From a virus (lineage: Duplodnaviria; Heunggongvirae; Uroviricota; Caudoviricetes): DNA of 33,994 bases. The DNA is taken from IMG/VR virus record IMGVR_UViG_2802429242_000009, positions 1 to 33,994 of that record; one strand, given 5' to 3'. Shown in pieces: positions 15,001 through 18,000 of this stretch. Made by a program: the position numbers. Each line of letters starts with the position of its first letter. Within the stretch, counting starts at the first letter, position 1.

Positions 15001-18000
15001 TCCGTGCTGATGTTTCTGCTGGTCGTAAGCGCCTGCAAGTCGCCGCCACCTGTGCAAAGTCAACGACCGGAGCCAGCGGCATGGGCGATGGAGAAAGCCC
15101 AGGACTTACAGCAGATGCTGAACTCAATTATTACCGTCTCCGAAGTGGAATCGACAGGATAACCGCACAGGTTAACTACCTGCAGGAGTACATCAGGACG
15201 CAATGCCTTCGATGATAGCGATAATTTTACTCATCATCCTTCACATCTGGCTCTGTAGACAGGGTGGTACTCACTTCTGGAGCGAATCCAGATTAAACAT
15301 CTCATTGCTGATGCTTGAAGTTAAGCATCTGGCGCGCGGTAAGGGGCTGCGTTGAGATAAGAGCCAGTCATAACAAATACCAGGATTTAGCCTCGCATTT
15401 GCGGGGCTTTTTTACATCTGCAGTAAACCGCGCATCGCAGCGCGTAACAATCCCGAGTCTTTCAGAAAGCTGAGCCTGAGAACTGCCGTATATGGTGGCG
15501 ACCATCTCGGGGCGGCTTTTCTGTGCGAACAGGCTCATCTTTCTAAAAGGTAAGACGCTATGAATATCGTTCCACTAAATTACAAAGGCGAACCTATCCG
15601 CTTCAATACTGATGGCTGGATTAATGCCACTGATATTGCAAAACGTTTCGGGAAGCGTCTGGATCACTGGTTGTCCAACGCTGAAACTCTCGAATACGTT
15701 AGAGCTCTGGATGAGGTTTATTCAGGTGAACCATCGAAAATTCTACATACCCGTGATTCCGGGTATGTAAAAACAAGCAAGGCACGAAAGGACAGGGGCG
15801 GCGGAACATGGCTGCATCCAAAGTTATCAGTTGCCTTTGCAAGATGGTGCGATCCGAAATTCTCCGTATGGTGCGACCTGCACATTGATAGTCTGCTTCG
15901 CGGTGAACTGACTGAGCAGCAGAAATATGAGCAAGCATGTCGCATTCGCGATGACCGGAAATCAAAAGCCAGCAATGGGGCAAGAGAGATGGCTCGCTGG
16001 CGATGGGATAAGCCGGTTATTGAAGCAAATGTTGAGTACTGGCGCGAGCAACTGCAGTTGACTCTCGATATCGCGTGCTGATGGCAAACGCAAAACTGCG
16101 TTATCGGAAAAATCAAAGCATTACGAGAACTGAGCAACGGCTATCCATTACAAAGCCCATTTACGGGTGGGCTTGATAATGAAACCGGAATTTATTCTGG
16201 GCCACCAGTTAACGGCAGTACCACGAAACAACCCAAGCCAGTAAGTGGGGAAATAACACCGGCAGCCACTGAAAGATGAACCTCCTGCCTTATGGCAAAA
16301 AAGATTCTTTGTGGTGGCGGACTGATGGAAAGACATCCTAATTTCAGCCAAACATTGAAGGAGTTGTTATGTCAGCAGAAGGTTTCAATAACCCATCAAA
16401 ATTTCGGGATGAGTGGGATAGCAGCGTAAAGAGTAAGTGATGCCATCACAAAAGCCATTCCCTACAGAGTGGCTTTGATAATGGCTTATACCCTGCACGG
16501 GATAACTTAACTGATATCCCCACAAGCGGATAAAGAGGCTCTCAATGTCCGACATCTACATCATCAAACTGAATACGAACGACGGCGGCGAGTAAACGGG
16601 CAAGATGTCACGACGTCAGCCTGAGCTGGTTAATGGCTTTGTGCCGCTGGCGACCTAGACGGGAGTGGGGGGGGGGCGTACTTCGCTCCTGCTGATGTCA
16701 AGTGCGTGTAGTTCACGCCAATATCGGTAGGTGACGATAGAACTGTGGAATAGACATGGCATTATCCTGGACGTGTAAATGTTCAATCGGAAATGCCATG
16801 CTGGTCAGTTGGTTGCTTAGACCTTCTTATAAGAGATAGATCTTCCGAATGGTGGATATATAGAAGTTGAATCTTTAATTTCATAAGTGGCCACTACATT
16901 TCCCGCAGCGTCCAACTCACGGTAAAGGTATTCATCGGTATCCTGACCTTTTCGAGCTCCTTTCCAGTTAGAAGAGACAAGCTCCAGTGTATGGTCATCT
17001 GGAATGCCGATTTTCTGTTTGTATTCATCACTCATGTGAAATCCTTAAAGGTAATTTATGGCACTCACCGACAAACAAGAAATGTTCTGTCGCGAGTACC
17101 TCATCGATTTAAACGCCACGCAAGCGGCTATTCGGGCGGGGTACAGCGCAAAGACAGCTAACCGTACCGCATCCGAAAACCTGTCAAAACCTGACATCAA
17201 GTTAAGAATCGCCGAACTGAAAGCGCAACGCAATGATCTTGTTGGTATTAATGCAGAATATGTACTTAATCGCCTTCTTGAAATCGACCAGATGGATGTG
17301 CTCGACATTCTCCTGCAAAACGGTGAGTTAAAGCCCATTAAAGACTGGCCTAAAGTATGGCGCACAACGCTATCAGGAATGGATGTCGTGGAGATGGTAT
17401 CCGCAGATAGTTCCGCACTTCTGAAGAAAATCAAATGGCCAGATAAGGTCAAAAACCTCGAACTTCTTGGAAAGCATGTTTCCGTTCAGGCATTTAAAGA
17501 ACAAGCTTCTCATGAGCTAACAGGCAAAGACGGCGGCGCAATTCAGATTGAAACATCACCGATGAGCACTCTATTCGGAAAATGACCTCGATTAATCCTA
17601 TCTTTGAATCGTTCATTGAGGCGCATCGCTACAAAGTCGCCAAAGGCGGTCGAGGTAGCGGCAAATCATGGGCAATTGCGAGGCTGCTTGTTGAAGCGGC
17701 GCGTCGGCAGCCTGTGCGTATTCTCTGCGCTCGTGAACTGCAAAACAGTATCAGCGATTCGGTAATCCGGTTGCTTGAAGACACCATCGAGCGGGAAGGG
17801 TATTCGGCTGAGTTTGAAATTCAGCGTTCAATGATTCGTCATCTCGGAACAAATGCTGAGTTCATGTTCTACGGCATCAAAAACAACCCGACGAAGATTA
17901 AATCGCTCGAAGGCATTGATATCTGCTGGGTGGAAGAAGCGGAAGCGGTAACGAAGGAATCATGGGATATCCTGATACCAACCATCCGCAAGCCGTTTTC

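What the first reader, a model, noticed from the sequence alone, without database searches (positions are those of the whole stretch)
16817..17035. Divergently transcribed small gene abutting the terminase promoter region
This 72-aa gene is the only minus-strand gene in the late half of the window, only 22 bp from the terminase small-subunit start. Opposite-strand genes inside late operons of lambdoid phages are usually morons expressed from the prophage. No family recognised.
Basis: inference. Interest (0 to 1): 0.4.

Follow-up and report, generated by a model that had tools for sequence, protein, structure and literature searches.

The report
Swappable cargo gene beside phage terminase
The small backward-facing gene is real and strongly conserved, sits in the same swappable accessory-gene slot that holds the pid gene of phage P22, and encodes an unnamed protein type that elsewhere is built into bacterial restriction and other anti-DNA defence loci, so it is probably a phage-host conflict gene whose exact job is unknown.

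Summary
The ORF at 16817-17035 (-), 72 aa, 22 nt from terS, is there as described. It is a real gene: homologues have saturated synonymous sites but 78-99% protein identity (dN/dS about 0.01-0.1). It matches no Pfam, PHROG, PADLOC or PDB family. The AF2 model is one helix plus a four-stranded sheet, a generic cystatin/NTF2-like shape.

Its position is a hypervariable cargo slot. In 109 viral contigs sharing the first 32 nt of this terS type, every one has an opposite-strand ORF, 104 of them starting 10-33 nt from the terS ATG, falling into 40 unrelated families. P22 pid is one occupant.

The mapped P22 pid promoter and 174-nt leader align along their whole length with terS codons 1-75 of this window. 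This predicts a weak sigma-70 promoter inside terS (-35 at 17233-17228, -10 at 17210-17205, start near 17198) and a 163-nt leader antisense to the terS start. A rare AGA/AGG Arg codon that supplies the -10's final T is enriched about sevenfold at that position.

Relatives of the protein sit inside Type I R-M operons, precede small deaminases in P4-like satellites, and are fused to PIN_8 nucleases. The moron reading is supported. A conflict-modulator function is inferred, not shown. There is no "terminase promoter" in the 22-nt gap.

The parts
16817..17035 (-). Coding sequence of the 72-aa protein ('X'): 8.2 kDa, pI 5.2, with no hydrophobic segment
   Evidence: ORF; purifying selection; homologues; PGAP annotates the orthologue as WP_053903632.1; physico-chemical values
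17042..17046 (-). Shine-Dalgarno AAGGA of X, 6 nt before its ATG. The terS SD (AAAGG, 17047-17051, + strand) abuts it.
   Evidence: Read from the sequence; TAAGGA is conserved in X-bearing loci
17036..17198 (-). Predicted 163-nt 5' leader of the X mRNA, antisense to the terS ribosome-binding site and codons 1-47
   Evidence: Collinear alignment with the P22 pid leader; the mapped TSS at P22 40,880 corresponds to window 17198; the fold has z = -3.2
17205..17210 (-). Predicted -10 hexamer GATTCT, homologous to the mapped P22 Ppid -10 AATCCT and encoded by terS codons Arg50-Ile51 (AGA ATC)
   Evidence: The AGA/AGG codon that gives the -7 T is found in 65/85 distinct terS genes, against 89/794 of the other Arg codons. 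It is the only AGA in this terS.
17228..17233 (-). Predicted -35 hexamer TTGCGT with a 17-nt spacer (P22: TTGCTT, 17 nt)
   Evidence: TTGCG(T/C) is present in 70/89 distinct terS genes at this position
17058..17147 (+). First 30 codons of terS, conserved at the nucleotide level beyond coding needs. It is retained as a fossil next to pid in P22 and in 14/100 slot loci where terS is truncated.
   Evidence: Same-codon fraction is 0.86-0.90 in codons 1-30 against 0.36-0.58 elsewhere; P22 match at 93.8% identity over 81 nt; fossils
17058..17098 (.). Imperfect inverted repeat that forms a hairpin in the X leader (and in the terS mRNA) directly at the terS start codon
   Evidence: RNAfold structure. 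It lies in the part of the P22 leader needed for the shorter pid RNA species, by alignment.
16755..16800 (-). Long imperfect stem-loop 17 nt after the X stop codon, followed by TCTATTCC. It is a possible 3' end or stabiliser, not a canonical intrinsic terminator.
   Evidence: fold; no terminator called here by the scan
16560..17037 (.). Segment replaced by a different cassette in E. coli Ecol_224, which carries a 78-aa gene. The right junction is at the X start codon. In phiES15 the homology starts exactly at the X stop codon (16817).
   Evidence: Pairwise BLAST of the window against L001, L003 and L004; annotations
17058..17585 (+). Small terminase subunit gene (Terminase_2 type), the divergent neighbour that hosts the predicted promoter and leader of X
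   Evidence: Pfam E 1e-39

Best explanation
The ORF is a genuine, strongly constrained gene for a small cytoplasmic alpha+beta protein of an unnamed family.

In this P22-like prophage it occupies a hypervariable cargo slot lying back-to-back with the Terminase_2-type terS gene. This is the same slot that holds pid in phage P22.

Expression (inferred by homology with the mapped pid promoter): host sigma-70 RNA polymerase starts leftward at a weak, phage-factor-independent promoter inside terS (-35 at 17233-17228, -10 at 17210-17205, start near 17198). The resulting mRNA has a 163-nt structured leader antisense to the terS translation start. The gene would therefore be made when the late operon is silent (prophage or unintegrated carrier-state genome) and be occluded when Q-dependent late transcription runs through it head-on.

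Function (inferred from fold, conservation pattern and gene neighbourhoods): the protein has no catalytic signature. Its invariant residues (R28-G30-D32-D34 and D55-T57-S58-Y60-P61-P62-F63-R65) sit on the two hairpin tips at one end of the sheet, which suggests a binding surface. Relatives are built into Type I R-M operons, precede small cytidine/dCMP deaminases in P4-like satellites, and are fused to PIN_8 nucleases. I therefore propose that it binds and restrains, or tunes, a nucleic-acid-targeting conflict effector. The stand-alone phage copy would then serve phage-host or phage-phage conflict, as an anti-defence decoy or a defence modulator, and not virion assembly.
For: Real gene: dN/dS is 0.008-0.13 with saturated synonymous sites. 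The family has 115 representatives. A good SD is conserved.

Cargo slot:
- Unrelated 78-aa and 90-aa genes sit at the same place next to about 95% identical terS.
- In the census of 109 IMG/VR loci, all have an opposite-strand ORF, 104 within 10-33 nt of the terS ATG, in 40 families.
- X is contiguous with this terS in 16 of 213 E. coli genomes that match the queried region.

pid link and promoter:
- P22 40,707-40,950 aligns collinearly with window 17058-17280.
- The mapped TSS, the -10 mutations and the promoter-probe data are in PMC8835761.
- pid RNA exceeds TPM 100 in a BTP1 lysogen.
- AGA/AGG is enriched at terS codon 50 (65/85 against 89/794).
- Synonymous sites are constrained in codons 1-30.
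- The terS 5' piece is kept as a fossil in 14/100 loci.

Protein: the AF2 model has pLDDT 84, with a helix and four long antiparallel strands. Conserved columns are listed. The protein has no TM segment or signal peptide and pI 5.2.

Conflict contexts:
- The cassette halfHsdS-DUF2188(PADLOC PDC-S16)-X-HsdM-BroN-like(PDC-S13)-HsdS-HsdR is found in about 23 species-level genomes, with 92-96% DNA identity across genera.
- A second, unrelated Type I locus has HNH, X and an AbiJ/Abi_C-like protein.
- X-deaminase pairs occur in P4-like satellites.
- PIN_8-X fusions exist.

In prophages X always lies between the lysis cassette and the packaging genes on the opposite strand. This holds with four different packaging modules.
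Against: - No expression data exist for this gene. The consensus promoter scan finds nothing in 16100-17600, and the inferred promoter matches only 3/6 in each hexamer, like the weak P22 one.
- No canonical terminator follows the ORF.
- The nucleotide conservation of the terS 5' end could instead reflect a pac or terS-binding site, an RNA element of terS itself, or a recombination linker.
- The function rests on guilt by association. No partner gene accompanies X in the phage. None of ten other slot occupants tested matches a PADLOC model.
- P22 Pid, the only studied occupant of the slot, modulates host metabolism, not defence.
- The sequences in the census and codon counts are related, so the counts are not independent events.
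Confidence: 0.6

Rival explanations
1. A Pid-like host-physiology modulator. The protein binds a host transcription factor or metabolic regulator and reprogrammes the lysogen or carrier cell, with no role in defence or anti-defence.
For: It occupies the same slot and has a homologous promoter and leader to P22 pid, whose product derepresses the host dgoRKAT operon. It is a small soluble protein with a putative binding surface.
Against: X has no similarity to Pid. Relatives at about 60-65% identity sit in Type I R-M operons of marine bacteria, next to deaminases, and fused to PIN_8 nucleases. These settings are hard to reconcile with a host-specific metabolic target.
Confidence: 0.17
2. An orphan component of a toxin-antitoxin-like pair, either antitoxin or toxin. 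In bacteria X would neutralise the neighbouring effector (DUF2188 protein, deaminase or PIN_8 domain). The phage copy would be a stand-alone antitoxin, or a mild toxin used for exclusion.
For: The two-gene arrangements are tight: DUF2188 and X are 10 nt apart, and X and the deaminase are 17-23 nt apart. X is fused to a PIN-type nuclease. ParE and other TA genes lie nearby in one locus.
Against: The model shows no DNA-binding antitoxin fold such as HTH, RHH or AbrB. No partner is present in the window. The partners are heterogeneous. This overlaps with, rather than excludes, the best explanation.
Confidence: 0.1
3. The locus works mainly as RNA. The leftward transcript is an antisense regulator of terS translation or packaging, and the ORF is secondary.
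For: The predicted leader is fully complementary to the terS RBS and codons 1-47 and is well folded, z = -3.2. The terS 5' end is constrained at synonymous sites.
Against: Very strong purifying selection acts on the protein. The ORF moves without the leader to other places: L006 with its own promoter-like site and terminator, L058, and R-M operons. In P22 the leader persists where no terS of this type remains to be regulated. An antisense effect could still exist as an additional function.
Confidence: 0.05
4. An accessory factor for DNA packaging that works with the small terminase.
For: X is adjacent to terS in 17 of 29 viral loci, across terS identities of 62-89%.
Against: It is on the opposite strand to the late operon. 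It is replaced by 39 unrelated families next to the same terS type. It occurs with non-homologous packaging modules (DUF2280, lambda Nu1/A) and in non-phage R-M loci.
Confidence: 0.03
5. A chance ORF on the antisense strand of late-operon DNA; not a gene.
For: 72 codons is within the range of random ORFs in this window. It is not annotated in phage phiES15.
Against: dN/dS is about 0.05 with saturated dS. The profile search finds 115 family representatives. The AF2 fold is confident. The RBS is conserved. PGAP calls it in E. coli genomes.
Confidence: 0.01

Closest known systems
P22 / BTP1 pid moron locus (Cenens 2013, PMC3573128; Wolput 2022, PMC8835761)
   Same: Same genomic slot: after the lysis genes and rha/KilA-N, before the packaging genes, and opposite to the late operon. 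The upstream region is homologous: the P22 pid promoter and 174-nt leader align with terS codons 1-75 here, including the -35, the 17-nt spacer, the -10 and the start position. Both encode a small soluble protein of 70-90 aa.
   Different: The proteins are unrelated. Here the upstream region is still a working terS gene, whereas in P22 it is a decayed fossil (GTG start, indels) and the real terS (gene 3) lies further downstream. pid has a canonical rho-independent terminator and X in this window does not. The Pid target (the dgo operon) says nothing about X.
Tab of Pseudomonas phage JBD26 (Patel 2024, PMC10884400)
   Same: A small (83-aa) minus-strand moron within the packaging-gene region of a temperate phage. 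It has its own promoter and is expressed from the prophage.
   Different: Tab lies between terS and terL and has a cognate anti-Tab gene in the late operon. No such partner is evident here. Sequence relationship was not tested because the Tab sequence was not at hand. Tab blocks tail assembly, and nothing indicates that for X.
Lambda bor (own knowledge)
   Same: An opposite-strand lysogenic-conversion gene between the lysis cassette and the cos/terminase genes. One X homologue (P0012) sits in exactly that interval of a lambda-like prophage with Nu1/gpA.
   Different: Bor is a secreted lipoprotein. X has no signal peptide or hydrophobic stretch.
Hotspots of anti-phage systems in P2-like phages and P4-like satellites (Rousset 2022, PMC9122126; title and abstract only)
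   Same: A fixed position flanked by conserved genes carries many alternative, unrelated cargo genes. X itself occurs in a P4-like satellite next to a deaminase.
   Different: This slot holds a single small gene, median 92 aa. It shares its promoter and leader with the coding sequence of terS. None of ten tested occupants matches a known defence model.
DUF2188 / PADLOC candidate PDC-S16
   Same: A small protein of unknown function linked to defence loci. It is the immediate upstream neighbour of X homologues in the Type I R-M cassette.
   Different: It is a different protein family. No DUF2188 gene was found in the X-bearing viral loci.

Membership tests
Phage moron (accessory gene unit inserted between conserved phage genes) | Present in some and absent or replaced in otherwise homologous genomes, with junctions at gene boundaries | tested here: met
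   Unrelated genes sit at the same place next to about 95% identical terS. There are 40 families in the slot. Homology with phiES15 starts at the stop codon.
Phage moron (accessory gene unit inserted between conserved phage genes) | Own promoter, independent of the surrounding operon | tested here: inconclusive
   The consensus scan is negative. A weak promoter is inferred by collinear homology with the mapped P22 Ppid and is supported by codon bias. No transcript data exist for this gene. In L006 a promoter-like site lies 32 nt upstream of the homologue.
Phage moron (accessory gene unit inserted between conserved phage genes) | Own transcription terminator | tested here: not met
   No intrinsic terminator follows the stop codon in the window, only a long imperfect stem-loop. 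The homologue in L006 does have one 8 nt after its stop.
Phage moron (accessory gene unit inserted between conserved phage genes) | Base composition differing from the neighbours | tested here: met
   GC is 40.6% (GC3 36%) against 45.8% for terS, 51% for terL and 47.8% for the window.
P22 pid locus | Homologous promoter and long 5' leader upstream of the ORF | tested here: met
   81 nt at 93.8% identity, with collinear homology over about 240 nt including the -35, -10 and TSS positions.
P22 pid locus | Pid protein homology | tested here: not met
   BLASTP finds no alignment at E up to 100.
P22 pid locus | Derepression of host dgoRKAT; expression in carrier-state cells | not testable with these tools
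   Needs reporter strains and single-cell microscopy.
Anti-restriction proteins (DNA mimics Ocr/ArdA; Ral/Lar-type alleviation) | Strongly acidic DNA-mimic surface, or sequence membership of ArdA/Ocr/KlcA families | tested here: not met
   Net charge is about -2.4 and pI 5.2. There is no Pfam hit for X or for 81 family members. A Ral/Lar-like activity cannot be judged by sequence.
Type II antitoxins | Adjacent cognate toxin and a DNA-binding (HTH/RHH/AbrB) domain | tested here: not met
   There is no partner gene in the window and the model has no such domain. Some relatives are paired with or fused to putative effectors.
Cystatin / NTF2-like superfold | Helix packed on a curved antiparallel sheet, with significant structural similarity | tested here: inconclusive
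Known anti-phage defence proteins (PADLOC-DB 2.0) | Match to a defence-protein model | tested here: not met
   No hits below E 0.001 for X or the 81 family members. Its neighbours in the R-M cassette match the candidate systems PDC-S16 and PDC-S13.

The most novel reading that the evidence does not exclude
X is the founding member of a widespread, unnamed small-domain family that acts as the inhibitory or regulatory partner of nucleic-acid-targeting immune effectors (Type I R-M complexes, PIN_8 nucleases, small cytidine deaminases). Temperate phages would carry a stand-alone copy as an anti-defence decoy. They would deliver it through a general plug-and-play cargo slot whose promoter and leader are written into the coding sequence of the small terminase gene, and the leader would double as an antisense brake on terS while the phage is quiescent.
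Probability: 0.2. Interest if true: 0.75.

Novelty: new member of a known kind. Interest (0 to 1): 0.5.

Why it matters
Three points make this more than an anonymous hypothetical protein.

1. It places the gene in a defined, very diverse cargo slot: 40 unrelated families next to one conserved terS 5' end. That is a ready-made list of candidate phage-host interaction genes, of which only pid has been studied.

2. It offers an origin for the unusually long leader and weak promoter of P22 pid: they look like the fossil 5' end of a replaced terS gene. Neither pid paper I read mentions terminase. It also predicts that a coding sequence is shaped by an antisense promoter (the AGA/AGG codon), which one synonymous mutation can test.

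3. The protein family links phage morons with a horizontally spreading Type I R-M cassette, satellite-borne deaminases and PIN_8 nucleases. This gives concrete experiments for a possibly new regulator or inhibitor of such systems.

If the protein turns out to have a mundane role, the finding reduces to a well-documented ordinary moron.

Tried and rejected
- Family searches with X alone and with 81 family members (Pfam, PHROGs, PADLOC, PDB sequence profile) gave nothing above noise.
- The sigma-70 and terminator consensus scan around the gene was negative.
- The Rfam scan of the window found only two tRNAs.
- The search for related loci with the broad alignment A2 failed for lack of conserved stretches; A1 worked.
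- Hits of the profile to giant repeat proteins (P0094, P0118, P0137) were set aside as beta-hairpin repeat noise.
- The literature search for accession numbers of X found nothing. The search for 'PIN_8' returned only plant PIN8 papers.
- The idea that the G10 run marks the left border of the slot was rejected: only 5 of 98 loci have such a run.
- The idea that other slot occupants are known defence genes was rejected for ten representatives. Pfam gave only DUFs: DUF2158, DUF2441, DUF6173 and DUF4145 with a weak HEPN hit.
- A packaging role and the chance-ORF reading were rejected (see the rival explanations).
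Full report
OBSERVATION. The window carries an ATG-initiated ORF at 16817..17035 on the minus strand (72 aa, TAA stop). 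The next gene to the right, 17058..17585 (+), is a small terminase subunit of the Terminase_2 type (Pfam E 1e-39). The gap is 22 nt. It contains only two abutting Shine-Dalgarno sequences, AAGGA for the small gene (17046-17042, minus strand) and AAAGG for terS (17047-17051).

The window is a P22-like prophage. It carries:
- a CI-type repressor at 6413-7063 (-);
- the Q antiterminator at 13215-13703;
- two tRNAs;
- holin, lysozyme and Rz at 14069-15215;
- a KilA-N gene;
- then terS, terL, a P22-type portal, coat protein and tailspike.

All other minus-strand ORFs of at least 70 aa in the late half lie inside these plus-strand genes. The description is therefore correct.

IS IT A GENE? ORF length alone proves nothing, since the window has 93 ORFs of at least 70 aa. 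Conservation does.
- The 5.8-billion-protein search found 26 clusters at 58-99% identity in E. coli, Enterobacter, Klebsiella, Citrobacter, Pantoea, Cronobacter, Serratia and Yersinia.
- An exhaustive profile search found 115 representatives at E up to 1e-3.
- Among 16 distinct nucleotide versions from phage contigs, synonymous sites are saturated while the protein barely changes. For example pN is 0.006 against pS 0.47. For pairs with dS above 0.1, median dN/dS is 0.049 and the maximum 0.10.
- PGAP annotates the orthologue in E. coli genomes (WP_053903632.1). In phage phiES15 it is present at 89% aa identity but unannotated.

THE PROTEIN. It is 8.2 kDa with pI 5.2, no hydrophobic stretch, and GC 40.6% against 47.8% for the window. 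AlphaFold2 with the family alignment gives pLDDT 84, with a short N-terminal helix and four long antiparallel strands. Invariant residues form two motifs, R-K-G-Q-D-T-D (28-34) and D-S-T-S-x-Y-P-P-F-G-R (55-65). By the meander topology these lie on the beta1-beta2 and beta3-beta4 hairpin tips at the same end of the sheet; that placement is an inference from topology.

WHERE THE FAMILY LIVES.

(a) Prophages. X is always between the lysis cassette and the packaging genes, on the opposite strand. This holds with four different packaging modules:
- Terminase_2 terS (17 of 29 viral loci, always about 22 nt away);
- a metallopeptidase-DUF2280-terL module;
- a Terminase_2/Terminase_3 module, where X lies 1.9 kb away with its own promoter-like site and terminator;
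- lambda-type Nu1/gpA.

(b) Bacterial chromosomes. In about 23 of 28 species-level genomes, all gammaproteobacteria and most from genera known from marine settings (Nitrincola, Vibrio, Pseudoalteromonas, Marinomonas, Colwellia, Alteromonas, plus Acinetobacter and others), a 60-65% identical homologue sits in a fixed cassette. The order is half-HsdS, DUF2188, X, HsdM, BroN-like protein, HsdS, HsdR. The DNA is 92-96% identical across genera, so the whole unit, X included, spreads horizontally. Its neighbours match the PADLOC candidate systems PDC-S16 (DUF2188) and PDC-S13. Others have linked DUF2188 to defence. A second, unrelated Type I locus has HNH, a 64-aa ORF, X, an AbiJ/Abi_C-like protein, HsdM and HsdS.

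(c) P4-like satellites. X lies 17-23 nt upstream of a 151-155-aa cytidine/dCMP deaminase.

(d) Fusions. PIN_8 nuclease carries the X domain at its C-terminus, and one protein joins X to DUF2326.

THE SLOT. E. coli prophages whose terS is about 95% identical to the window's carry unrelated minus-strand genes at the same place. One is a 90-aa membrane protein and another a 78-aa soluble protein. Homology resumes exactly at the X start codon or at the terS ATG. With phiES15, homology starts exactly at the X stop codon.

I searched IMG/VR for an exact 32-nt pattern from the start of terS. This gave 109 loci not selected for X. Every one has an opposite-strand ORF of at least 43 aa, and in 104 it starts 10-33 nt from the terS ATG. 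The ORFs fall into 40 unrelated families with a median length of 92 aa. X occurs once and P22 Pid once. Of 213 E. coli genomes matching the 16600-17300 query (X plus the terS 5' part), 16 have X contiguous with terS. Ten occupants tested gave only DUFs in Pfam (DUF2158, DUF2441, DUF6173, DUF4145/HEPN-like) and nothing in PADLOC.

THE LINK TO P22 pid AND THE EXPRESSION MODEL. The first 30 codons of terS are identical in protein and nearly identical in DNA across loci whose terS is otherwise 62-89% identical. The same-codon fraction among identical residues is 0.86-0.90 there, against 0.36-0.58 further on.

The same 81 nt occur at 93.8% identity in phage P22 (40745-40825). P22 has no terS of this type there. 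The segment lies just upstream of pid. A global alignment shows that P22 40,707-40,950, the experimentally mapped pid leader and promoter, is collinear with window 17058-17280, that is, terS codons 1-75.

Wolput et al. (PMC8835761) mapped the following in P22:
- the pid TSS at 40,880, giving a 174-nt leader;
- an eroded -10 (AATCCT), which two up-mutations improve;
- no other promoter in the 244 bp proximal to the ORF;
- weak constitutive activity without phage factors.

The aligned positions in the window are -35 TTGCGT (17233-17228), a 17-nt spacer, -10 GATTCT (17210-17205) and a start near 17198. This gives a 163-nt leader fully complementary to the terS RBS and codons 1-47.

The -10 is encoded by terS codons Arg50-Ile51. 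The Arg codon is AGA or AGG, which supplies the -7 T, in 65 of 85 distinct terS genes. Among all other Arg codons of the same genes the figure is 89 of 794 (Fisher p 1e-37, but the sequences are related). In the window it is the only AGA in terS. The leader folds better than shuffles (z = -3.2), with a hairpin at 17098-17058.

In 14 of 100 loci the terS frame is truncated yet the 5' segment and a slot gene remain, as in P22. That argues the segment serves the slot gene. Neither pid paper mentions terminase. pid RNA is abundant in BTP1 lysogens. The Pid phenotype in P22 is seen in carrier-state cells, not in lytic growth or stable lysogens.

WHAT IS SHOWN AND WHAT IS INFERRED.
- Shown here: the gene is real and constrained; it is a swappable cassette in a hypervariable slot; the upstream region is homologous to the mapped pid regulatory region; codon and synonymous-site patterns fit an embedded antisense promoter and leader; the family is associated with Type I R-M, deaminase and PIN_8 contexts.
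- Inferred: that the promoter works here; that late transcription occludes it; that the leader affects terS; that the protein acts by binding through the two conserved loops; and that its role is in defence or anti-defence.

RIVALS.
- A Pid-like host-regulator role is possible (0.17), but the R-M, nuclease and deaminase contexts fit it poorly.
- A TA-like role (0.10) overlaps with the main model.
- An RNA-only function conflicts with the dN/dS and with the ORF moving without the leader (0.05).
- A packaging role (0.03) and a chance ORF (0.01) are essentially excluded.
- The conservation of the terS 5' end could alternatively reflect a pac or terS-binding site or a recombination linker. The P22 and other fossils speak against a purely terS-related reason but do not exclude a linker role.

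COMPARISON AND NOVELTY. In kind this is a phage moron. In place and regulatory region it belongs to the pid locus type. In protein it is a new, unnamed family. It fails the membership tests for Pid, DNA-mimic anti-restriction proteins, classical antitoxins and known PADLOC proteins. I rate it a new member of a known kind. Two by-products may be new: the slot census, and the reading of the pid leader as a terS fossil with a promoter written into terS.

LIMITS.
- There are no expression or phenotype data.
- IMG/VR entries are related to each other.
- The AF2 model was not validated experimentally.
- afdb50 was unavailable.

Noticed in passing
window 17058-17147 (+): The first 30 codons of terS are almost invariant in DNA, including synonymous sites, across phages whose terS is otherwise 62-89% identical. 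The segment forms a hairpin right at the start codon.
   Followed up: yes
L079 (P22 NC_002371.2) 40,707-40,950 vs window 17058-17280: The mapped promoter and 174-nt leader of P22 pid look like the decayed 5' end of a Terminase_2-type terS gene (GTG start, indels). The two pid papers read do not mention terminase.
   Followed up: yes
window 16665-16674: A G10 homopolymer lies about 145 nt 3' of the small gene. A similar run sits beside the pid terminator in P22 (40393-40402). Its length differs in close relatives (G6 in E. coli LWY24, G9 in phage As3). Only 5 of 98 slot loci have such a run, so it is not a general slot feature. Its function is unknown.
   Followed up: partly
window 16082-16816: 735 bp without a convincing ORF, and mosaic: 16400-16520 resembles HK544/mEp460 and 16514-16719 resembles Enterobacter phages ENT1/CobraSix. 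PGAP calls a 92-aa hypothetical protein in E. coli LWY24 at the equivalent of 16140-16418, but only a 45-aa ORF (16292-16429) remains here.
   Followed up: partly
L017, L019-L038, L042, L043 (about 4000-10200 in each): A Type I R-M cassette (half-HsdS, DUF2188, X, HsdM, BroN-like, HsdS, HsdR) is 92-96% identical in DNA across gammaproteobacterial genera, including Vibrio, Acinetobacter, Pseudomonas and Marinomonas. Only the HsdS target-recognition parts and the BroN-like gene vary.
   Followed up: partly
L011 653-1353; L012 349-1052: X homologues lie directly upstream of a 151-155-aa cytidine/dCMP deaminase. In one case this is in a P4-like satellite between the primase and the integrase. The deaminase weakly matches the PADLOC dCTP-deaminase model.
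   Followed up: partly
proteins P0097, P0140, P0148, P0164, P0165; P0120: PIN_8 (PF18476) nucleases carry the X domain at their C-terminus. One protein joins an N-terminal X domain to DUF2326.
   Followed up: partly
L006 4100-6250; L007 1860-3980: In another prophage the lysis-to-terS interval holds four or five opposite-strand small genes in a row: a 78-aa slot gene, DUF2158, DUF6953 and X. A DNA pol III theta homologue is also there. Here X has a promoter-like site and an intrinsic terminator of its own.
   Followed up: partly
window 13795-13866 and 13875-13947 (+): Two tRNA genes lie between the Q antiterminator gene and the holin gene.
   Followed up: no
window 15560-16081 (+): A KilA-N domain protein with a weak ORF11CD3-like C-terminus sits between Rz and the small gene, where P22 has rha.
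   Followed up: no
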